From the sequence record PX123008.1: a DNA stretch of 44,682 bases; one strand, given 5' to 3'. The first letter of the stretch is position 1; each line of letters opens with the position of its first letter. Below, piece by piece: positions 10,052-39,430 of the stretch. Made by a program: the position numbers and the translations under genes. Below the pieces are notes generated by a model. It saw only the letters and a program-made list of their open reading frames with translations. It ran no database searches and was not told the DNA's origin. This DNA is from a phage.

Positions 10052-10473
10052 TGAGCAATACTCTAATCCGCAAGGCGCTTAACCGCGTTGTCGAAGAATT
10101 ATCGGTAAGCCTGAGCACTAACCCGCGCCCGATAAAGGTTAACTGGGAGAACGTGAGCGGCGACCACGCAAACGGCAGCGGTGTCTACCTAGAACCATAT
10201 CTGCTTCCGGCCCCTACCCAGTTTGTGGGCTTCCAGCAGAAGGGCCGGATCTATGCAGGCGTGTATCAGATTGCCGTGGTATTTCCTGCGGGCACGGGCA
10301 CACAGTATGCGAGCGAACTGGCGGACGCCATTGCGACGTCAGACAAGTGGCAGGCCGTAAGGCTTACCGGCGCTGCATTCCAGCTTCAGGACGCGCCATA
10401 CACCAGTTCAGTGATTGAGGATGTTGACCGCGCCCGCATCGTGGTTACAGTGCCCTATTCCTGTTGTGCCTGA
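10051..10473 (+). CDS. tail terminator / tail completion protein (tentative)
   Basis: 140 aa, start overlaps the previous stop (ATGA); immediately upstream of the major tail protein gene. Confidence 0.45.
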   Translation: MSNTLIRKALNRVVEELSVSLSTNPRPIKVNWENVSGDHANGSGVYLEPYLLPAPTQFVGFQQKGRIYAGVYQIAVVFPAGTGTQYASELADAIATSDKWQAVRLTGAAFQLQDAPYTSSVIEDVDRARIVVTVPYSCCA

Positions 10474-10534
10474 TTTGGCGCAATTCTGCGCGTGCTGTAT
10501 CATTAAACCGTATATCTAAACAGGAGCGTTCATT

Positions 10535-11260
10535 ATGGGTTATCAACTTCCTAACGGGTCCAGCGTCCAGATTGGGTCCGTACTGGGCAGCGGCATCGCT
10601 GTTACGGCAGCTACCAACGCCGCCGCGTCGATCTCCGACCTTACGCAAGGTTGCGTAATTACCTGTGCGGCTTCGCATGGCCTGGTTGTTGGCGACGTTG
10701 TTATGTTCACTAAAACCCCGTGGGTCCGAGCGCTTAACCGCGCATTCATCGTGGGTAAAGTGGACACCAACGACGTTACGCTGGCGCGCTTCGACACCGA
10801 AGACGTCACAAAATACCCGACCGGCGCTTTCAGCGTAGGCACTCCGGGCGAAGTGGTGAAGGTGTCGGGCTTTATCGACTTCCCTTTCATTACTAACGTT
10901 GCCGTGTCTGGTGGCGACCAGCAGACGACTACCTTCCAGCCGTTGCAGGTGAACACCGCAATCAGTCTGAACACCACGAAAAACCCGTTGGTACAGACTT
11001 ACACTTTCACCCACGACGAAGAAGACCCGATCCGCCCAATCCTGGAAGACCTGGACGACACACAGAAAACCACTGTGATTAAGTTCACTAACCCAGCGGC
11101 AGCAAGCGGCAAAGGTGAGATCCGTATCTACCCGGCAAAGGTATCTTTCCAGAAGATTCCTTCCGCTGAAGTAAACAACGTGGAAACGGTACAGTCTACT
11201 CTGACCATGCAGTCTGATATGGTTATCTACCGTAAGGATCTGGTCGAGGCATTGTCTTGA
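10535..11260 (+). CDS. major tail (tube) protein
   Basis: 241 aa with CAGGAG RBS; followed by a terminator and then the chaperone and tape measure genes, the conserved siphovirus order. Confidence 0.7.
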   Translation: MGYQLPNGSSVQIGSVLGSGIAVTAATNAAASISDLTQGCVITCAASHGLVVGDVVMFTKTPWVRALNRAFIVGKVDTNDVTLARFDTEDVTKYPTGAFSVGTPGEVVKVSGFIDFPFITNVAVSGGDQQTTTFQPLQVNTAISLNTTKNPLVQTYTFTHDEEDPIRPILEDLDDTQKTTVIKFTNPAAASGKGEIRIYPAKVSFQKIPSAEVNNVETVQSTLTMQSDMVIYRKDLVEALS

Positions 11261-11290
11261 TTTGGTCGCTTAAATAGCGAGTGTTAATAT

Positions 11291-11314
11291 GGGGCCCGCA
11301 CGGCCCCTTTTTTA
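11291..11314 (+). terminator. rho-independent terminator after the major tail gene
   Basis: GGGGCC-cgcac-GGCCCC hairpin followed by TTTTTTATT. Confidence 0.6.
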
Positions 11315-11329
11315 TTGGAGAATACTACA

Positions 11330-11692
11330 ATGGCTAAAGCACCACTCTTCACACTTGACCCTAAACCAACCTTTAAGCTGCCGATTGAGATCCCGCGCCC
11401 TGGTGAGAACGAACCCGGCAAGATGACGTTTACCGTACGCCACCGCCCGATCGACGAATTTTCGCAGACCATGCAGGACACTGAGCGCAAGCTATCGGAA
11501 TATGACGACAATGACCCGGACGGCTTTAACGTTATGGTCGAGGCCATCATGCACGTCGCTGAAGGCTGGAACCTGCCGGACGAATTTAACGCGGAGAACG
11601 TCCGCCGCCTGGTGGTCAACTATCCACGTGCGTTCGGTGTGTTCCACACGTCGTACTATCTCGAACTGATGGGATTGCGTGAAAAAAACTAA
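11330..11692 (+). CDS. tail assembly chaperone (lambda gpG-like)
   Basis: 120 aa, acidic, directly upstream of the tape measure gene; ends with slippery heptamer A_AAA_AAC 3 nt before the stop. Confidence 0.65.
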   Translation: MAKAPLFTLDPKPTFKLPIEIPRPGENEPGKMTFTVRHRPIDEFSQTMQDTERKLSEYDDNDPDGFNVMVEAIMHVAEGWNLPDEFNAENVRRLVVNYPRAFGVFHTSYYLELMGLREKN

Positions 11693-12006
11693 TTGAGGCG
11701 GCGCGACGCTTTTATGGCCCGCCGCCACCCTCTGAAGATTTAGCCGCAAGTTTATGGGGTGCGGCCCCCGAAGATGTTTGTCCGCCTGTTGCGCTATGGC
11801 CCGACAACGCGAAGGTAGTCGCAGTCTTCACAGATTGCTCCACGCAATGGCGCACCGGATTTGGTGGCGCATACGGCATCGACTACGGCGTGCTGGAGTG
11901 GTTATTTAAGATGCACGGTATCGAAAACGCGCAACGTGCGTTTAAAGATATCAAGCTAATGGAACGCGTTGCGCTGGATGAAATGGCGCGGCAGAACCCC
12001 GCATAA
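11330..12006 (+). CDS. tail assembly chaperone, -1 frameshift extension product (lambda gpGT-like)
   Basis: slippery A_AAA_AAC at 11683..11689 in the 0 frame; the -1 frame is open from 11689 to the TAA at 12004..12006, about 105 codons. Confidence 0.55.
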
Positions 12007-12010
12007 CGGA

Positions 12011-12327
12011 GCGGGACAGGCGGGACGTCCCGTTTTGTCCCGCACCTCTAAAACTGCATATTTACCCACTTACATTGCATAGATTAAAAGCGGGACAGGG
12101 GTGCTGTCCCGATCTGTCCCACCCCCGAAATGTGAATGTCTATTCAGTTTTCGTGCATAAAACAAACGGGACAGAAAGCGGGACAGAATGAGGCGGGACA
12201 AAGCGGGACAGCACCCCTGTCCCCGCCAGTGCTGCCGCGGGTTTTTAGCCGATCGGGACAGGCGGGACAAGCCCAGTCTTTCAGACTAGACGGGGGTCAT
12301 TGGCCCCCCTCGTCTGAGACTGAATAA
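12011..12327. repeat. iteron cluster A: ~8 direct and 4 inverted GCGGGACA copies plus a conserved ~60-bp terminal hairpin
   Basis: GGGACA at 12013, 12092, 12168, 12180, 12195, 12205, 12255, 12264; TGTCCC at 12036, 12105, 12115, 12218; terminal segment nearly identical to 39366..39430. Confidence 0.85.
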
Positions 12328-12390
12328 GGTTTGTTTTAAATTCGCTGATACAATGACCAACGGCAACTGCATAAAAAGGGGGACTGCATA

Positions 12391-15033
12391 ATGGCAGATC
12401 AGGCAGCGGGCATCACGCTCAAGGCGGACGTCGCGCAAATTAAAACGGCTAATACTGTGCTGGACACATTTGCGCAGAAATCCGAGAACACAGAACAGAA
12501 AGTAAAAAAATTAAACGACACCCTCGGCAAGTCGAAAAAGGTTACTGGCGACGCTGCGGGCGGAATGGAAAAGTTAGCGACTGAATCGCAGCGTGCCGCC
12601 GATGGCATGACGAAACAAGAGCGACTCGCCAGCCGATTAGGCATGTCGACCAAAAACCTGGGATTCGCATCGCGGAACGCCGCATTCCAGTTACAGGATA
12701 TCGCGGTTACGCTTGAGATGGGTATGCCGGTGCACCGCGTTATGCTTCAGCAGCTACCACAGCTTACTGGGGCGTTTGGCGGGTTGGGTAACACACTGCG
12801 TTATGTCGTCGGCACCCTCGGCCCGTTAGGTATCGGCATCGCGGCCTTGACGGCAACGCTTGGCGTAGGGGTGGCAATTACGACCCGCGCAGAGAACCAA
12901 GTGGCGGCGCTTAATAAGACGCTGGCGCTGTCCGGTAATATTTCGGGCCTCACAGCTAACCAGATCCTTGTGCTGTCCGAGAACGCTGAGCGCATGGGCG
13001 GGTCATTTCGCAAGACGCGCGACACAATCCAGGCGCTGGCGGCGGCGGGTGTGAAAGCGGGTGGTGACTTCGGCGCATTGGCTAAGGTAGTTAATGACTT
13101 TGCGAAGGTGTCCAGCCAGCCGATCGAGGATGTGGTAGCGGCGGTGGCGAAGCTGTCAACCGACCCCGTTGGCGGACTGCGTGCGCTGGCGGATAAGTAT
13201 CACGTCGTAAACGAAGCGCAGATCCAGCAGGTACAGTCGCTCGTTGATGCGGGTCGTGAGACAGACGCAGTTGCGTTGGCTAACAAAACAGCCGCTGCGT
13301 CGTTCACCAGCATGACCAATGAGATCAAGGCGAACATGGGTACGCTTGAGCGGTCGATGAACGTCGTCACATCGGCAGCCAAATCGATGTGGGACGCTAT
13401 CCTGGATGTGGGTCGCGCGCAGTCCTCCAATGAATCCGAGATGAAAGCGCGCGAATCACTGCAGCGGCTGACCACGGCTTACTATGCCGAGATGAAAGCG
13501 GTAAACGCTGCCGGTGGGGTAATGACTGAAGCGCAGAAAGCACGTATTAACATGCTTTACAGCGAACTGGTCGCCCAGGAAAAAGTGGTGGCGTCGCTCA
13601 CCCTGCGTAACCGTGCCGAGCGGGACAACGCCAGCGCCGCGGAAGAAGCAGCAAAGGCGAACGAGGAGGCCAACCGCACCGCCCGCGACCGCGCCGCGTT
13701 TGAGAAGGAGTACGCAACCAACGCGAAGCGGCGCGCCGACGAGATCGCCCGCCTCAATTTGCTGAATAAGCGTGGCGTTATTGACGAGAAAGAGCTTGCT
13801 GAGGCGGTGAAGCAGGTCAACGAGCGCTACAAAGACCCGGCACCGAAGAAGGCCGCGGCTGTTCGCGTGGATGCAGGGATGAAAATGCTGGAAGTCGCGC
13901 GCAGCGAACTGGCACAGCTTCGAGAATCAGGCAAGCAGATCGAAGCCAACGCGTCGACGCAGACCCGCACGCAACGCGCTCAAGCGGCCCTAAACAAGCT
14001 GATCGCGGATAATGAGCAGTTAATCGCAGCAAGCAAAGAAAGGGCACTAACGGCAGCAGAAAAGCAGCAGATTGCAGAATTCGGACGCGTGAAGGAAGTA
14101 CGCGAGCAGATCGTCGAAGAAGCCAAATTGCTGGACGCGAAAGAGAAGCAGGTCAAGGCGCACGCGCAGATCGACGCCTTCGTTAAGAACCAGAACGCCG
14201 AGCTAAAAGCCACCGCGGCGGGCTATGCGCTTTCCACTCGCGAAGCGGCAAACCTGCGTGAAGAATTGCAGCTAATTGACCGCCTGAAGCGGGTTGGAGC
14301 TAACGATACTGATATTGATCTGGCGGTATCTAAGCTGCGCGAAGTGCAGGAAGCACAGACCGGTGCTAACGCCTCGCTATGGGATGGCTTCAGCCGCGGG
14401 CTTAAGGATAGCGTGGATGAAATGGGTAACGGCTATACGCAGATGACGTCACTCACAAAATTCACGTTCGGCGCTATGCAGGACACGATGAACGAGTTTT
14501 TTGAGACGGGCAAGCTGAACGCAAAGGATATGGTTAAATCCATCCTGAGCGAATTAATAAAGCTGGCTACCTCGCAGGCATTCAAGTCCATCGTTAGCGC
14601 TTTCGGTGGCGACGGCGGAAAAAACGGATTGTTCGGCGCTATCTTCTCGGGCCTCACTAAGAATGCGGACGGCGGAGCGTACGCAGGAGGCAATCTCGCG
14701 GCATATTCGGGGAAAGTGGTAAGCCAGCCTACCTTTTTCAGTTATGGCGTTCAGGCGTTCGCTAAGGGCGCGGGATTGATGGGCGAGGCTGGACCCGAGG
14801 CCATCATGCCACTGAAGCGCGGGCCGGACGGGAAACTGGGTGTTGCCGCGTCTGGCGCAGGCGGTGGTATGGTCGTGACGACTAACGTTTACACGGGGTC
14901 CGGTAAAACAGATACCAGTGTCAGCGGGCCGGACCCCCGTACCGCGCAGGCGTTCGGCAAGCAAATCACCGAAGCGGTGAAGGCCGAGATCGTGAAAGCG
15001 ACGAAACCGGGTGGTGTACTTTACAAACGATGA
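12391..15033 (+). CDS. tail tape measure protein
   Basis: 880 aa, alanine-rich coiled-coil-like with a glycine-rich C-terminal region; follows the G/GT-like chaperone. Confidence 0.85.
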   Translation: MADQAAGITLKADVAQIKTANTVLDTFAQKSENTEQKVKKLNDTLGKSKKVTGDAAGGMEKLATESQRAADGMTKQERLASRLGMSTKNLGFASRNAAFQLQDIAVTLEMGMPVHRVMLQQLPQLTGAFGGLGNTLRYVVGTLGPLGIGIAALTATLGVGVAITTRAENQVAALNKTLALSGNISGLTANQILVLSENAERMGGSFRKTRDTIQALAAAGVKAGGDFGALAKVVNDFAKVSSQPIEDVVAAVAKLSTDPVGGLRALADKYHVVNEAQIQQVQSLVDAGRETDAVALANKTAAASFTSMTNEIKANMGTLERSMNVVTSAAKSMWDAILDVGRAQSSNESEMKARESLQRLTTAYYAEMKAVNAAGGVMTEAQKARINMLYSELVAQEKVVASLTLRNRAERDNASAAEEAAKANEEANRTARDRAAFEKEYATNAKRRADEIARLNLLNKRGVIDEKELAEAVKQVNERYKDPAPKKAAAVRVDAGMKMLEVARSELAQLRESGKQIEANASTQTRTQRAQAALNKLIADNEQLIAASKERALTAAEKQQIAEFGRVKEVREQIVEEAKLLDAKEKQVKAHAQIDAFVKNQNAELKATAAGYALSTREAANLREELQLIDRLKRVGANDTDIDLAVSKLREVQEAQTGANASLWDGFSRGLKDSVDEMGNGYTQMTSLTKFTFGAMQDTMNEFFETGKLNAKDMVKSILSELIKLATSQAFKSIVSAFGGDGGKNGLFGAIFSGLTKNADGGAYAGGNLAAYSGKVVSQPTFFSYGVQAFAKGAGLMGEAGPEAIMPLKRGPDGKLGVAASGAGGGMVVTTNVYTGSGKTDTSVSGPDPRTAQAFGKQITEAVKAEIVKATKPGGVLYKR

Positions 15034-26857: not shown

Positions 26858-27181
26858 TTACGCATAAAAGTTAGGGTCGCGCGCAACGTCCACCAAATAA
26901 AGATTGCTGATCCGGTTGCCGTAGTGGCCTGGTGTGCGCTGGCGACACACAACGGCGAAGCCTGGAGGGATTGTATTGCCCGTCTCTATAATCCACGCCA
27001 CGCGTGCGCCAGACAGCGTCTTGCCGTTGCACTCGATACGTGTTCCGCCGTCGGCAGTGTTAAGGTTGCCAATCTTGCAGCCTGTGGACTTCAGACGGAT
27101 GACGCCGGTCTTGCTGTCGTAGGAAAAAAGCTGATTGGTCATTGCCACTGAAAAGTCGATGGCGTCGAATGCAGTATTCAT
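26858..27181 (-). CDS. hypothetical protein
   Basis: 107 aa, GAGGA RBS; a loose HNH_3-like pattern (GNRISNLYLV) lacks the catalytic histidines, so left unassigned. Confidence 0.45.
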   Translation of the reverse strand: MNTAFDAIDFSVAMTNQLFSYDSKTGVIRLKSTGCKIGNLNTADGGTRIECNGKTLSGARVAWIIETGNTIPPGFAVVCRQRTPGHYGNRISNLYLVDVARDPNFYA

Positions 27182-27873
27182 TTTAAATTTTCCTCGTTAA
27201 CCGCTATCGCGAAGCCGCGCGGGGTGAGCGACCTGATTAATTTGGTGCGGGCGGATTTGCCTCCGAGGCGACTATACTGCTTCGAGTACCCTTTTTCAAC
27301 GAAAACAGGTTTCTTCTCTGGCATACGGAAGCCGTTGCCGGTCCATAAGCAGGTCAGCTTCGGATATGAATCGCGGGCGTTGATGTATTCTGGGAAGAGC
27401 GGGTGTACGTCATCCTCCGGCAGATATCCGCCATACTCCCACGGGTCAAACGAGTGGTCCGGCTTACGCCATTGATTTGATAGCACGCTGCGCGGATTCT
27501 CAATCATATACGGCACTTCAAAGAAATCACCCAGGTAAGCGGCGATCTTCGCGGTGCGCACCGCCTTAAGCTGGAAGGCTGGGTCGCGGGCGCGTTTGCG
27601 CGGGAAAGCTGGCGCACCGCTAACCGCCAGATCCGTGCACGGCGGGAATGCGTATATGATATCCGGCGTACCGAAATCACCATTCATCGCACGGTCTACA
27701 AAGTCCAGATCGATAAACTCATTGCGATACCGGATTCCGCGACCATAAATCCGGTAGTCAAGGTACGACCCGTGATCGGCTTCGGAGTAGTTAAAACAGT
27801 AGCACTTATGCCCCATCTCGGCAGCACGCTCAATCATCAAGCCGCTGCCGTCAAACAATGACCAGATTATCAT
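27178..27873 (-). CDS. DNA cytosine-5 methyltransferase-like protein (short)
   Basis: 231 aa; motif I-like LFDGSG, motif IV-like FPPCTDLAVSG and motif VI-like MIENP in the canonical order; no obvious target-recognition domain. Confidence 0.5.
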   Translation of the reverse strand: MIIWSLFDGSGLMIERAAEMGHKCYCFNYSEADHGSYLDYRIYGRGIRYRNEFIDLDFVDRAMNGDFGTPDIIYAFPPCTDLAVSGAPAFPRKRARDPAFQLKAVRTAKIAAYLGDFFEVPYMIENPRSVLSNQWRKPDHSFDPWEYGGYLPEDDVHPLFPEYINARDSYPKLTCLWTGNGFRMPEKKPVFVEKGYSKQYSRLGGKSARTKLIRSLTPRGFAIAVNEENLK

Positions 27874-36843: not shown

Positions 36844-39108
36844 ATGAGCTTAATTAAATTCGCAGTAACACGACCCGCTAAAAAAGGCGAAAAAGCCAGG
36901 GCGGAAAACTTCCAGATGACCACCGATGAGTTTTTCGAATTTATCAAAGATGCGAAAGAAATCTCCTCGGTGCATATCAACAAGACGGAAGATAAAGCCG
37001 AGTATGCGCGCCGCAAGCGTAAGGCCGATGGCATCGTGGCGTATACCAGTGACGGATTGCGTCGTAAGACCAGTGCGGTGGACCGCTCGATCCTGTTCTT
37101 TGATATTGACCGCACAGACACCCGCACCCTGCGCCGCTGCCGTAAGGCGTTCATCGACGCGGGTCTGGAACACGTATTTCACACCACCACCGGCGATCGC
37201 CACCCGCTGAAGGGCGGCACGCGTTGCGCCCGTTTCCTGGTGCTCACTGACAAGCCTGTACCGGCTGAAGACCTGGGCCGCGTCCAGTATGCACTATTAC
37301 ACCAACTCGGCCTGTCAGATGTGGACTTCGATGATTGCACGAAAGACACAAACCGCCTTATGTACCTGCCTCACCAGCAATCGGTTGTTAAGTGTCACTA
37401 CGGCAAACGTGCCCGCGTCCGTCGTCTGCTTCGCCTGGCGGATAAGCTGGGAGTGAAAAAAGAGGAAGTACGCCGCGAATTAACCCAGGGCGATGACGGC
37501 GTGGCGGACGGCATTCTGGATTGGTGCTTCCAGGCAGGATTCGAACCGCTGTCGTCCGGTCGTGGTTATGAAGTGCCGTGCCCTAACGAACACCTGCACA
37601 GCGGCGAAGGGTCCACCGCTATCATGGTTAAGGATGGCGAGATCCGTTTCAAGTGTATGCACACCGGCAACGAGTGTTGCTCGGAACTGAATAGACACCA
37701 GCACCTGGCGCTACGTCTTATCGGGATCCCGGACCACCTGAACGTCGAACCGCACAACATGTCCCGCAAGCAAATCGCCGCCATCCTTCCGGGACTGGAC
37801 GACGAGGAAGTGGAATCGTGCTATGAACATATCGTTGATGCTGTTGGCGACGGCGAAGAATACGGCGTGTGCACCGATGCGGATCTGGATAACGAGCCGG
37901 TAGCGCTGTTTAGCAAGCACGACCCGATCATCGAGGGGCTGATTAACTTTAAATCGACCTGGTATCTTGCCGGTGAGTCGAACATCGGTAAGTCGTTCTA
38001 TGTGCTGGGCCAGATGGCGTCCGTATCTGCCGGTATCCCGTTTGGCGGTGCGAAGGTCGTCCAGTGCCATAACTTCTATTTCGACGCGGAAGGTGGTGAA
38101 GCCTCCAACCAGCGTAAGGAAGCATTGCAGATCAAATATGAGCACGACCTGGACAAGCTGCACATTATCGATCTGCAATCACGCGGCTGGGATATCACCA
38201 GCAAATCCGGCTTGCGTGAAGTTATCAGCTTCATCAACCGCACCGCTAACGGCGAACCGGTTGGCCTGGTGGCGTTCGACTCACTCAACCAGACTGTTGC
38301 GCTGCGGTCCGCCGATGCGAAGCCGTTCGACGAGAACAACGCCAGCGATATGGGCGAAGTGGTCAAAGCGCTGAAGGCCATCGCGGAAAATACAGGCGGC
38401 AGTGCGGGCGTCATCCACCACCCGGCGAAAGGTGCAAACGGCAGCAGAACGCCACGCGGGTCCGGCGCGCTTCATGGTGCTGTCGATTCTGCGTTCTTCC
38501 TGGAGCAACCGGACGACAATCAGCCCGGCCAATTGAACCTGTATCACGAGAAGGCACGTAACGGCATCAAGCAAGCGCCGCGCGGCTTCGTCCTGCTCAA
38601 GTGCAAGGTTAAGGTGGATCTCCGCAAGTCCGAAGCGTTCGAAGCCCACCAGTCCGCCAGCACCGGGCCGGACTTCGGCGATGTGGTTGCCGGTTGGGAC
38701 GTCAAGCCAATCGCATCCACGCCACGCGACGAGACTCTTTACCTCGTACCGGTCGCCCTGGCACCGTTCGCTATCGAACAGGCAAAGGCCGCTGGCAAAG
38801 CAGCAGTTAAGGAAGAGAACGCCGCAGGACCGCGCAACGAAAAAGAGAAAGTGCTTTATGCGGCGCTGGAAAAACTGATGGAAGATAACCCGGACCATAC
38901 CGGATTCAGTAAGTCGGCAATTGTCCGCCAGGCTGGACTGGCGAAAGGCGGCACATCGACGAAGGCAATCGACGATATGGTCGAGCGCGGCGTACTCGGT
39001 TTTTATACAGATCCGCACACCGGGGCCATCTATGGGTCGTCTAATATCGTCATAAAAACGAATATACCCATCACGCTTTCGGCGACCGATGACGACCTGA
39101 AAGATTAA
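36844..39108 (+). CDS. primase-helicase (AEP-type primase-polymerase domain + P-loop helicase domain)
   Basis: 754 aa; N-terminal ILFFDIDRTD acidic motif; central Walker A LAGESNIGKS and Walker B-like VAFDSL. Confidence 0.75.
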   Translation: MSLIKFAVTRPAKKGEKARAENFQMTTDEFFEFIKDAKEISSVHINKTEDKAEYARRKRKADGIVAYTSDGLRRKTSAVDRSILFFDIDRTDTRTLRRCRKAFIDAGLEHVFHTTTGDRHPLKGGTRCARFLVLTDKPVPAEDLGRVQYALLHQLGLSDVDFDDCTKDTNRLMYLPHQQSVVKCHYGKRARVRRLLRLADKLGVKKEEVRRELTQGDDGVADGILDWCFQAGFEPLSSGRGYEVPCPNEHLHSGEGSTAIMVKDGEIRFKCMHTGNECCSELNRHQHLALRLIGIPDHLNVEPHNMSRKQIAAILPGLDDEEVESCYEHIVDAVGDGEEYGVCTDADLDNEPVALFSKHDPIIEGLINFKSTWYLAGESNIGKSFYVLGQMASVSAGIPFGGAKVVQCHNFYFDAEGGEASNQRKEALQIKYEHDLDKLHIIDLQSRGWDITSKSGLREVISFINRTANGEPVGLVAFDSLNQTVALRSADAKPFDENNASDMGEVVKALKAIAENTGGSAGVIHHPAKGANGSRTPRGSGALHGAVDSAFFLEQPDDNQPGQLNLYHEKARNGIKQAPRGFVLLKCKVKVDLRKSEAFEAHQSASTGPDFGDVVAGWDVKPIASTPRDETLYLVPVALAPFAIEQAKAAGKAAVKEENAAGPRNEKEKVLYAALEKLMEDNPDHTGFSKSAIVRQAGLAKGGTSTKAIDDMVERGVLGFYTDPHTGAIYGSSNIVIKTNIPITLSATDDDLKD

Positions 39109-39250: not shown

Positions 39251-39430
39251 TAAAACTGCATAAACTAAGCGGGACAGAAAGCGGGACAAACAAGGGGCGG
39301 GACAAAGCGGGACAGCACCCCCTGTCCCGCCCGGATGGCGCGGCCTGGAGAGGAGCGGGACAAGCGGGACAAAGCCCAGTCTTTCAGACTAGACGGGGGT
39401 CAACGGCCCCCCTCGTCTGAGACTGAATAA
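39251..39430. repeat. iteron cluster B: 6 direct and 1 inverted GCGGGACA copies plus the conserved ~60-bp terminal hairpin
   Basis: GGGACA at 39271, 39283, 39299, 39309, 39357, 39366; TGTCCC at 39323; 39366..39430 nearly identical to 12264..12327. Confidence 0.85.

What the first reader, a model, noticed from the sequence alone, without database searches (positions are those of the whole stretch)
11683..11689. Programmed -1 frameshift site (A_AAA_AAC) linking the tail chaperone to a gpT-like extension
The chaperone ORF ends gaa aaa aac taa. The heptamer A AAA AAC is in the correct phase for simultaneous -1 slippage, 3 nt before the stop. The -1 frame is open for about 105 codons (to 12006) and ends at the start of the iteron region. 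This reproduces the conserved G/GT arrangement upstream of tape measure genes.
Basis: partly seen in the sequence, partly recalled or inferred. Interest (0 to 1): 0.45.

Follow-up and report, generated by a model that had tools for sequence, protein, structure and literature searches.

The report
Tail chaperone -1 frameshift site
This is the usual programmed -1 ribosomal slip that lets a long-tailed phage make a short and a long tail-assembly chaperone from one gene; it is real and strongly conserved but ordinary, and its main value is correcting annotation in this phage genus.

Summary
The window is a Dhillonvirus (HK578/SO-1-like coliphage). The 120-aa chaperone gene (11330-11692, Pfam Phage_TAC_4) ends CGT GAA AAA AAC TAA, so A_AAA_AAC (11683-11689) is in phase and forms its last two sense codons. 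The -1 frame is closed by TGA at 11680-11682. It opens at the heptamer and runs 105 codons to the stop at 12004-12006. It has no ATG/GTG/TTG for its first 67 codons and encodes a complete DUF1799 domain (E 3e-21). In 95 of 97 related loci (down to about 30% identity) the second domain lies in the -1 frame. 88 of those 95 end in A_AAA_AAC plus stop; the other seven carry G_GGA_AAC or an A_AAG/A_AAA-type site. The codon before the heptamer changes amino acid (E/V/G/A) but keeps its third-base A. Within 14 Dhillonviruses the extension varies mainly at third codon positions of the -1 frame. The best explanation is -1 ribosomal frameshifting giving G (14 kDa) and G-T (25.6 kDa), as in lambda G/GT. 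The extension is T-like by position only, with no sequence similarity to lambda gpT. A GC hairpin 7 nt downstream is a possible, weakly supported stimulator. This is a new member of a known kind and of low interest.

The parts
10535..11260 (+). Major tail tube protein gene (upstream context of the G/GT pair)
   Evidence: PF08813 Phage_tail_3, E 7.5e-32. Annotated as major tail / tail tube protein in related records.
11291..11313 (+). Terminator-like GC hairpin plus T run between the tube gene and the chaperone gene (context; it probably lowers expression of the downstream genes)
   Evidence: Terminator scan hit GGGGCCCGCACGGCCCC followed by TTTTTT. Annotated as a terminator in the phage CS16 record.
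11330..11692 (+). Gene G: tail assembly (tape measure) chaperone, 120 aa, 13.96 kDa, the product of standard decoding
   Evidence: ORF and translation. PF08748 Phage_TAC_4, E 1.4e-23, full length. phrog_569, E 1e-40. GGAG lies 9 nt upstream of the ATG. Mass.
11680..11682 (+). TGA in the -1 frame that closes that frame just upstream of the heptamer, limiting any frame change to 11683-11692
   Evidence: It is present in most Dhillonvirus relatives, which also have a 10-nt overlap.
11683..11689 (+). Slippery heptamer A_AAA_AAC in X_XXY_YYZ phase; it forms the last two sense codons of G
   Evidence: It is invariant in 14 Dhillonviruses. AAA AAC are the last two codons in 88 of the 95 -1-frame loci, and G_GGA_AAC or A_AAG-type sites occupy the same place in the rest.
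11690..11692 (+). Zero-frame stop TAA directly 3' of the heptamer; a possible 'shifty stop' contributor
   Evidence: The stop is adjacent to the heptamer in all 88 -1-frame A_AAA_AAC loci and in the single G_GGA_AAC locus. Any stimulatory role is inferred, not tested.
11697..11726 (+). Candidate stimulatory hairpin (arms GGCGGCG / CGCCGCC), starting 7 nt after the heptamer
   Evidence: MFE -17.1 kcal/mol, z -1.8, 7 of 200 shuffles fold as well. Both arms are invariant in 14 Dhillonviruses: 0 of 5 synonymous sites in the arms vary against 6 of 8 in the loop and 3' flank, Fisher p = 0.016. It is not conserved across the wider family: mean z -0.38, 1 of 17 lineages below -2.
11689..12006 (+). T-type extension read in the -1 frame: 105 codons plus stop TAA 12004-12006. 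The G-T fusion is join(11330..11689,11689..12006), 225 aa, 25.57 kDa
   Evidence: PF08809 DUF1799, E 3.3e-21, profile positions 1-80 of 80. phrog_17368 covers fusion residues 1-223 over profile positions 1-212 of 213, E 7.5e-32. Variable columns by codon position 3:1:2 are 63:17:7, and pairwise synonymous:nonsynonymous differences are 1694:430 in this frame against 186:1920 in frame 0. Mass.
12391..15033 (+). Tape measure protein gene (downstream context; the presumed ligand of the G domain)
   Evidence: PF06791 TMP_2, E 1.8e-42, and PF09718 Tape_meas_lam_C, E 7.6e-14.

Best explanation
Most ribosomes translating the chaperone gene terminate at TAA 11690-11692 and release the 120-aa chaperone G. 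A small fraction slip back one base on A_AAA_AAC, with tRNA-Lys moving from AAA to AAA and tRNA-Asn from AAC to AAA. These ribosomes then read CTA ATT GAG ... in the -1 frame to the stop at 12004-12006. The result is a 225-aa G-T fusion with the junction ...LREKN-LIEAARR....

By analogy with lambda gpG/gpGT, the shared G domain would coat the tape measure protein. The rarer DUF1799 'T' domain would recruit the tail tube protein, so that the tube polymerises around the tape measure. Neither protein would stay in the virion.

Shown here: the site, its phase, the start-less coding -1 ORF, both domain identities, conservation of the slippery site at the nucleotide level, and purifying selection on the extension.

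Inferred: that slippage actually occurs, its efficiency (expected to be a few per cent, because A_AAA_AAC is a weaker site than A_AAA_AAG in E. coli), the roles of the adjacent stop codon and the downstream hairpin, and the binding partners of the two domains.
For: - Phase, stop and -1 ORF are as described. The -1 frame is open only from 11683, and its first ATG/GTG/TTG is GTG at 11890, after 67 start-less codons. A product starting there would lack about 45 of the 77 residues of the DUF1799 domain, which spans residues 23-99 of the extension.
- Gene order is tube, TAC, extension, tape measure.
- phrog_17368 aligns end to end with the fused protein, so the two domains are known as a single protein family.
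- In 17 of 17 annotated-phage relatives and 95 of 97 loci overall, T is in the -1 frame relative to G.
- 88 of the 95 -1-frame loci end in AAA AAC plus stop. The other seven carry G_GGA_AAC (Ralstonia phage) or A_AAG/A_AAA_G sites within one codon of the stop.
- There is constraint at the nucleotide level. Elsewhere in these genes Lys is AAA:AAG 542:474 and Asn is AAC:AAT 438:129. Yet all 11 clusters (<75% identity) that have K-N at the site use AAA AAC. The preceding codon is GAA, GTA or GGA in the heptamer-bearing clusters (different amino acids) and always ends in A, although only 17% of third positions in G are A.
- In the extension frame, third-position variation is 63 against 17 and 7, and synonymous:nonsynonymous differences are 1694:430. 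All 14 Dhillonviruses keep it open.
- The 25 nt at 11681-11705 are invariant across 14 Dhillonviruses of 85-97% identity. This is the least variable 30-nt window of the gene pair.
- The Serratia phage Smarc4 homologue (about 31% identity) is deposited as a two-piece joined 'pre-tape measure frameshift protein'.
- The G/GT frameshift is widely conserved (review PMC5009743). AAAAAAC abutting the chaperone stop has been proposed for Acinetobacter phage Loki (PMC5313236). Tail chaperone frameshift efficiencies of 6-7% have been measured in reporters (PMC3711429).
Against: - There is no direct evidence of the fusion protein.
- A_AAA_AAC is reported to be much less shift-prone than A_AAA_AAG in E. 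coli (PMC5009743), so efficiency may be low. That still fits the roughly 30:1 G:GT ratio of lambda.
- The downstream hairpin is only marginally better than shuffled sequence and is not conserved in the wider family.
- The run of 7 A's means transcriptional slippage cannot be excluded as a contributor.
- None of the 10 annotated Dhillonvirus records inspected marks a frameshift. That reflects annotation practice rather than evidence of absence.
- Single-sequence AlphaFold2 models were too poor (pLDDT 53-55) to test fold similarity to solved chaperones.
Confidence: 0.88

Rival explanations
1. The same G-T fusion is made mainly by transcriptional slippage. RNA polymerase adds one extra A in the run GAAAAAAAC (7 A's), so a subset of mRNAs carry G and T in one frame, with the junction ...REKK-LIEAAR....
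For: The site contains a 7-A homopolymer. One relative, L020, carries 8 A's in its DNA, and there G and T are fused in frame as REKKLRQ. This shows that a single extra A is enough. Reviews treat A-runs as substrates for both mechanisms (PMC5009743).
Against: Relatives keep the same -1 arrangement with sites that lack a long homopolymer: G_GGA_AAC in the Ralstonia phage, and GCAAAGG, CAAAAGA and CAAAAG in others. The family-wide mechanism therefore cannot be polymerase slippage. From my own knowledge, efficient slippage by E. coli RNA polymerase generally needs runs of about 9 or more. The strict conservation of the final C (AAC rather than any codon) and of the phase fits tRNA re-pairing better than run length does. 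L020 also has a second frame disruption downstream, with T truncated at ...FQLHGG, which looks like homopolymer sequencing error.
Confidence: 0.06
2. The extension is translated on its own as a separate small protein from a non-canonical start. An example is ATT at 11692, as in the Sodalis phage SO-1 gp16 annotation. No frameshift would be involved.
For: The SO-1 RefSeq record annotates gp16 starting at the position equivalent to 11692. Other records annotate short internal fragments of this frame as separate hypothetical proteins.
Against: No ATG/GTG/TTG occurs in the first 67 codons of the -1 frame after the slip. No Shine-Dalgarno-like sequence precedes 11692. The deposited fragment annotations disagree with one another and each cuts off much or most of the DUF1799 domain. 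Independent initiation would not explain the conserved in-phase slippery heptamer, the constant -1 offset in 95 of 97 loci, or the third-base A of the preceding codon. phrog_17368 contains full-length two-domain proteins.
Confidence: 0.03
3. The heptamer is coincidental and the extension is a decaying, unexpressed gene remnant.
For: AAAAAAC is no more frequent in the window than chance predicts. In-phase heptamers are common, 28 in 48 ORFs.
Against: The extension shows a clear coding signature, with a 63:17:7 codon-position bias, a synonymous excess and no stop in any of 14 genomes. It has a full-length Pfam match at E 3e-21. It is conserved in 1,154 phage records, 833 of which cover at least 80% of the fused query.
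Confidence: 0.01

Closest known systems
Phage lambda G/GT programmed -1 frameshift (Levin, Hendrix & Casjens 1993; Xu, Hendrix & Duda 2004; reviewed in PMC5009743)
   Same: Both have two reading frames between the major tail gene and the tape measure gene. In both, the second frame is -1 and lacks its own start, and an in-phase heptamer lies near the end of the first ORF. Both give a short abundant product and a long rare fusion product. The inferred roles are also the same, with G binding the tape measure protein and T binding the tube protein.
   Different: The lambda site is G_GGA_AAG, while this one is A_AAA_AAC abutting the stop. Lambda G and T overlap by 19 nt (10115-10133) in the RefSeq annotation, whereas here the open overlap is 10 nt. 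The proteins belong to different Pfam families (Phage_TAC_4 plus DUF1799), and no sequence similarity to lambda gpT is detectable. Lambda T overlaps the start of H, whereas here a 384-bp repeat region separates T from the tape measure gene.
Serratia phage vB_SmaS-Smarc4 'pre-tape measure frameshift protein' (MT980833, QPB10168.1)
   Same: It is homologous in both domains (about 30% and 33% identity), has the same -1 offset and gene order, and is deposited as a two-piece joined CDS.
   Different: Its shift site is the A_AAG type (GAA AAG TCC TAA) rather than A_AAA_AAC. In the window's own genus, none of the annotated records inspected carries a join.
T1-like phages (Drexlerviridae) 'tape measure chaperone' gene pairs, for example tuinn, GJL01, NBD2 and 12210I
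   Same: They have homologous G and T domains (27-42% and 30-43% identity). Their ending, GTA AAA AAC TAA, contains the identical A_AAA_AAC heptamer plus stop, and T is in the -1 frame.
   Different: In the two of these four records that annotate the tape measure gene with a full-length second ORF (NBD2, 12210I), that gene follows T within about 35 nt. They have longer -1 overlaps (73-85 nt). [quoted passage not shown]
Acinetobacter phage vB_AbaS_Loki gp12/gp13 (PMC5313236)
   Same: [quoted passage not shown]
   Different: It is an unrelated phage, and homology of its proteins to those here was not tested. It is likewise a prediction only.
E. coli dnaX and IS-element -1 frameshift sites (A_AAA_AAG in dnaX; A6C in IS1, the latter from my own knowledge)
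   Same: These are lysine-codon A-run heptamers decoded by the same E. coli tRNA-Lys. dnaX uses a downstream hairpin as a stimulator.
   Different: dnaX ends in G, which is far more slippery than C, and also uses an upstream Shine-Dalgarno-like stimulator. No such element is evident here, and the hairpin here is unproven.

Membership tests
Conserved G/GT-type programmed frameshift of long-tailed phage tail assembly chaperones (Xu, Hendrix & Duda 2004) | Two overlapping reading frames located between the major tail (tube) gene and the tape measure gene | tested here: met
   The tube gene is 10535-11260 (PF08813), G is 11330-11692, the extension runs to 12006, and the tape measure gene is 12391-15033 (PF06791, PF09718).
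Conserved G/GT-type programmed frameshift of long-tailed phage tail assembly chaperones (Xu, Hendrix & Duda 2004) | The downstream frame is offset by -1 and has no initiation signal of its own | tested here: met
   The offset is -1. The first ATG/GTG/TTG is at 11890, after 67 start-less codons, and no Shine-Dalgarno sequence lies near 11692.
Conserved G/GT-type programmed frameshift of long-tailed phage tail assembly chaperones (Xu, Hendrix & Duda 2004) | A canonical X_XXY_YYZ slippery heptamer in phase within the overlap | tested here: met
   A_AAA_AAC lies at 11683-11689, and the overlap is only 10 nt.
Conserved G/GT-type programmed frameshift of long-tailed phage tail assembly chaperones (Xu, Hendrix & Duda 2004) | The arrangement and a slippery site are conserved among diverged relatives | tested here: met
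   95 of 97 loci have T in the -1 frame. 88 of those 95 end in A_AAA_AAC and the rest carry G_GGA_AAC or A_AAG-type sites. Codon choice is constrained beyond what the amino-acid sequence requires.
Conserved G/GT-type programmed frameshift of long-tailed phage tail assembly chaperones (Xu, Hendrix & Duda 2004) | Both the short protein and the fusion protein are made, at a fixed low ratio | not testable with these tools
   This needs a western blot, mass spectrometry or a reporter assay.
Conserved G/GT-type programmed frameshift of long-tailed phage tail assembly chaperones (Xu, Hendrix & Duda 2004) | Both products are required for tail assembly and are absent from mature virions | not testable with these tools
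   This needs genetics and virion proteomics.
Pfam PF08748 Phage_TAC_4 (tail assembly chaperone) | A score above the curated gathering threshold over the whole domain | tested here: met
   83.9 bits against a cut-off of 21.1; residues 1-120 align to profile positions 1-124 of 124.
Pfam PF08809 DUF1799 | A score above the curated gathering threshold over the whole domain | tested here: met
   75.7 bits against a cut-off of 26; extension residues 23-99 align to profile positions 1-80 of 80.
Lambda gpT family (Pfam Phage_tail_T; accession PF06223 recalled from memory) | Detectable sequence or profile similarity of the extension to lambda gpT | tested here: not met
   No Pfam hit other than DUF1799 at E<=0.1. 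hhalign of a 15-sequence extension profile against lambda gpT gives probability about 1% and E 0.055 over 14 columns.
Solved tail assembly chaperone folds (spiral TAC structures, Pell et al. 2013) | Structural similarity of the G domain to a solved chaperone | tested here: inconclusive
   The single-sequence AlphaFold2 model has pLDDT 55, and Foldseek against the PDB gives no match with E<=0.001. A profile search of PDB sequences found nothing relevant.
Programmed transcriptional slippage | A homopolymer run long enough for polymerase slippage, conserved as a run rather than as a phased heptamer | tested here: inconclusive
   The window has a 7-A run. Homologues keep the -1 arrangement with G_GGA_AAC or with only 3-4 A's. 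That argues against slippage for the family but does not exclude a minor contribution here.
Rfam frameshift or recoding elements | A match to a curated RNA family at the site | tested here: not met
   No relevant hit in 11200-12450 at E<=1. The only hit overlapping the hairpin is on the minus strand (Acido-1), at 19.9 bits against a gathering score of 50.

The most novel reading that the evidence does not exclude
The Dhillonvirus site may be a three-part signal rather than a bare heptamer. The parts would be a deliberately weak A_AAA_AAC heptamer, a zero-frame stop codon that must abut it (a 'shifty stop'), and a lineage-specific 7-bp GC hairpin exactly 7 nt downstream. Together they would set the G:GT ratio. 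On this reading DUF1799 is a T-domain family unrelated in sequence to lambda gpT and made only by recoding, in more than 1,000 sequenced phages. That would give a function to a domain of unknown function.
Probability: 0.3. Interest if true: 0.25.

Novelty: new member of a known kind. Interest (0 to 1): 0.15.

Why it matters
The main value is practical. None of the 10 annotated Dhillonvirus records inspected encodes the fusion. They list the extension as one to three unrelated 'hypothetical', 'DUF1799' or mis-started fragments, or they omit it. The correct feature is join(11330..11689,11689..12006) with ribosomal slippage. The same correction applies to roughly 150 related genomes and, with the same heptamer, to many T1-like phages.

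The finding also links Pfam DUF1799 to a concrete role, as the frameshift-dependent C-terminal domain of a tail assembly chaperone. It adds a clean comparative example in which the slippery site is visibly conserved at the nucleotide level while the encoded residues change. It does not alter the understanding of frameshifting or of tail assembly.

Tried and rejected
- **Structure prediction.** Single-sequence AlphaFold2 models of G and of the extension had pLDDT 55 and 53. Foldseek of the G model against the PDB gave only noise, with the best E = 1. Alignments built from other phages could not be submitted, so fold-level comparison with solved chaperones failed.
- **PDB sequence search.** A profile search with the fusion alignment returned only a spurious ribosomal protein hit at E 0.36.
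- **Large protein database search.** The search for homologous proteins with the fused protein returned only 3 hits, none two-domain. It therefore could not show whether fused proteins are deposited.
- **Rfam scan.** No recoding element was found.
- **Family-wide hairpin.** Across 17 lineages the mean z was -0.38 and only one lineage was below -2. I therefore rejected the idea of a conserved family-wide stimulatory structure and kept only a lineage-specific candidate.
- **Upstream stimulator.** I looked by eye for a dnaX-like upstream Shine-Dalgarno element. The GGG of the conserved Met/Ala-Gly codons varies at its third base among relatives (GGA/GGG/GGC/GGT), so I did not pursue it.
- **Second candidate site.** The in-phase TTTAAAA/AAATTTA heptamers at 27187-27190 (minus strand), followed by a 107-codon -1 ORF, turned out to be an ordinary ATGA start/stop overlap with its own ATG and GAGGAAAA.
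- **Literature.** Searches for Dhillonvirus, HK578 or DUF1799 together with frameshift found no description of this particular site.

Full report
**What the window is.** Megablast of 10500-12450 finds 159 phage records at about 85-95% identity. Almost all are Escherichia phages of the genus Dhillonvirus (HK578, JL1, SO-1, SECphi18 and similar). The window length of 44.7 kb matches a whole genome of this genus.

**Checking the observation.** The ORF starting at ATG 11330 has GGAG 9 nt upstream and ends ...CGT GAA AAA AAC TAA at 11692. A_AAA_AAC therefore sits at 11683-11689 in X_XXY_YYZ phase. It forms the last two sense codons and abuts the stop.

- In the -1 frame a TGA at 11680-11682 closes the frame just upstream. 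The two frames are therefore open together for only 10 nt, which is the heptamer plus the stop.
- That frame has no ATG, GTG or TTG until 11890, after 67 start-less codons.
- The GCGGGACA repeat cluster begins at about 12008.

The heptamer alone is not remarkable. AAAAAAC occurs 6 times against 8 expected, and 28 in-phase canonical heptamers occur in the 48 long ORFs. This is, however, the only one at a gene end followed by a long start-less -1 ORF. The sole look-alike (27187, minus strand) is an ATGA overlap with its own ATG and ribosome-binding site.

**What the two frames encode.**

| Element | Match | E-value |
|---|---|---|
| Zero-frame product, 120 aa, 13.96 kDa | Pfam PF08748 Phage_TAC_4, full length | 1.4e-23 |
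| -1 extension | Pfam PF08809 DUF1799, complete (profile 1-80 of 80) | 3.3e-21 |
| Fused protein, residues 1-223 | phrog_17368, profile 1-212 of 213 | 7.5e-32 |
| Upstream gene | PF08813 tail tube | 7.5e-32 |
| Downstream gene | PF06791 and PF09718 tape measure | 1.8e-42, 7.6e-14 |

The phrog_17368 match means the two domains are already known together as one protein family. The gene order is the classical tube, chaperone, extension, tape measure.

**Comparative test.** tblastn with the fused protein finds 1,154 phage records. In 833 of them a single place covers at least 80% of the fused query, and in the sampled rows that span both domains the match is in two pieces, as expected for two frames. 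I fetched 17 annotated-phage loci and 80 IMG/VR loci.

- In 95 of 97 loci the second domain lies in the -1 frame relative to the first.
- One exception, L020, has 8 A's instead of 7. This fuses the frames as REKKLRQ, and a second frame break lies downstream, so sequencing error is likely.
- The other exception, L021, has the usual site (GAA AAA AAC TGA), but my script placed its T match in frame 0. I read this as an additional internal indel and did not check it.
- Of the 95 -1-frame loci, 88 end in AAA AAC plus stop.
- The remaining seven carry G_GGA_AAC (Ralstonia phage) or A_AAG/A_AAA_G sites within one codon of the stop.
- These relatives share only 27-45% amino-acid identity with the window protein.

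The constraint acts on nucleotides, not only on the protein.

- Elsewhere in the same genes Lys is AAA:AAG 542:474 and Asn is AAC:AAT 438:129.
- Yet all 11 clusters (<75% identity) that have Lys-Asn at the site use AAA AAC.
- The preceding codon is GAA, GTA or GGA in the heptamer-bearing clusters, so the amino acid changes, but it always ends in A. Only 17% of third positions in G are A.

**Selection on the extension.** I compared 14 Dhillonviruses of 85-97% identity.

- Variable columns in 11692-12003 fall 63:17:7 on codon positions 3:1:2 of the -1 frame.
- Pairwise synonymous:nonsynonymous differences are 1694:430 in that frame, against 186:1920 and 207:1947 in the other two frames.
- All 14 genomes keep the frame open for 105 codons.
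- The stretch 11681-11705 is invariant, and 11675-11704 is the least variable 30-nt window of the gene pair.

**Possible stimulators.** A hairpin with arms GGCGGCG and CGCCGCC (11697-11726) starts 7 nt after the heptamer.

- Its energy is -17.1 kcal/mol, z is -1.8, and 7 of 200 shuffles fold as well.
- In the 14 Dhillonviruses none of the 5 synonymous sites in the arms varies, while 6 of 8 in the loop and 3' flank do (Fisher p = 0.016).
- Hairpins at the same 7-nt spacing appear in Serratia phage Susuwatari (z -2.7) and Salmonella phage GJL01 (z -3.5).
- Across 17 lineages, however, the mean z is -0.38.

I therefore treat the hairpin as a lineage-specific candidate only. The stop codon abuts the heptamer in every A_AAA_AAC locus, which fits a 'shifty stop' contribution. 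It could also simply reflect the need to keep the whole G domain in the fusion. Rfam has no matching element.

**Mechanism.** The best-supported reading is -1 ribosomal frameshifting. It would yield G (120 aa) and, rarely, G-T (225 aa, 25.57 kDa) with the junction ...LREKN-LIEAARR.... This matches lambda G/GT, where the ratio is about 30:1, G binds the tape measure protein and T binds the tube protein (PMC5009743). A_AAA_AAC is reported as much less slippery than A_AAA_AAG in E. coli, which suits a low fusion ratio. Reporter measurements on other tail chaperone sites gave 6-7% (PMC3711429).

Transcriptional slippage on the 7-A run could give the same fusion with a Lys-Lys junction. It cannot be excluded as a minor route. 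The homologues with G_GGA_AAC or only 3-4 A's show that it is not the family's mechanism.

Independent initiation, such as the ATT start used for SO-1 gp16, has no supporting signal. It would also not explain the conserved heptamer.

**Comparison with what is known.** This is the conserved tail-chaperone frameshift of Xu, Hendrix and Duda (2004).

- The same site architecture, AAAAAAC next to the stop, has been proposed for Acinetobacter phage Loki (PMC5313236).
- A homologue in Serratia phage Smarc4 is deposited as a joined frameshift protein.
- The extension is 'gpT-like' only by position. hhalign of an extension profile against lambda gpT gives about 1% probability, and no Pfam hit other than DUF1799 appears.
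- Lambda T overlaps the start of H, and in phages NBD2 and 12210I the tape measure gene starts about 35 nt after T. In the window a 384-bp repeat region separates T from the tape measure gene.
- None of the 10 annotated Dhillonvirus records I opened marks the frameshift.
- Literature searches found no description of this site for the genus.

**Verdict.** This is a new member of a well-known kind. Its value lies in annotation: join(11330..11689,11689..12006), and DUF1799 as a frameshift-dependent chaperone domain. It has little conceptual novelty. Direct proof needs proteomics or a reporter assay.

Noticed in passing
window 12008-12270 and 39264-39373: There are two clusters of the motif (A)AGCGGGACA(G/A) in both orientations: 17 exact GCGGGACA copies against 2.1 expected, and none of 100 shuffles reaches 17. 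The first cluster fills most of the 384-bp gap between the T stop and the tape measure start, and it includes a 32-nt inverted repeat that is 91% complementary (12092-12123 / 12192-12223). The second cluster lies just downstream of a 754-aa ORF (36844-39108). The SO-1 record annotates them as 'region A' and 'region B' repeats. In phages NBD2 and 12210I the tape measure gene starts about 35 nt after T, so no comparable gap exists there. The function is unknown. The repeats look like binding sites for a DNA-binding protein, but the 'iteron' label is unverified.
   Followed up: partly
window 11291-11313: A strong terminator-like hairpin, GGGGCCCGCACGGCCCC followed by TTTTTT, lies between the tail tube gene and the chaperone gene. 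It is annotated as a terminator in phage CS16. It probably lowers transcription of the chaperone and tape measure genes relative to the abundant tube protein.
   Followed up: partly
L020 1520-1527 (IMG/VR UViG_2619619144_000009): This relative has GAAAAAAAAC (8 A's) at the slip site. G and T are therefore fused in frame as ...REKKLRQVAA..., and the T part is then cut short at ...FQLHGG. This is either a homopolymer sequencing error or a natural fusion-only variant.
   Followed up: partly
window 14619-14625 and 12504-12510: Two more in-phase A-run heptamers (A_AAA_AAC and A_AAA_AAA) lie inside the tape measure gene. Their -1 frames close after 11 and 24 codons, well inside the gene, so any slip there would only truncate the protein. 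They are probably chance occurrences.
   Followed up: yes
window 27177-27190, minus strand: In-phase TTTAAAA/AAATTTA heptamers lie at the end of a 231-aa ORF and are followed by a 107-codon -1 ORF, which looked like a second frameshift candidate. The downstream ORF has its own ATG in an ATGA overlap and GAGGAAAA upstream, so this is ordinary translational coupling.
   Followed up: yes
Related GenBank/RefSeq records: Annotation of this gene pair is inconsistent. The chaperone is variously called 'major tail protein', 'tail length tape measure protein' or 'hypothetical protein'. The extension is split into one to three short fragments or omitted. PHROG names for both domains (phrog_569, phrog_680 and phrog_17368, all 'tail length tape measure protein') appear to spread the mislabel.
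   Followed up: no
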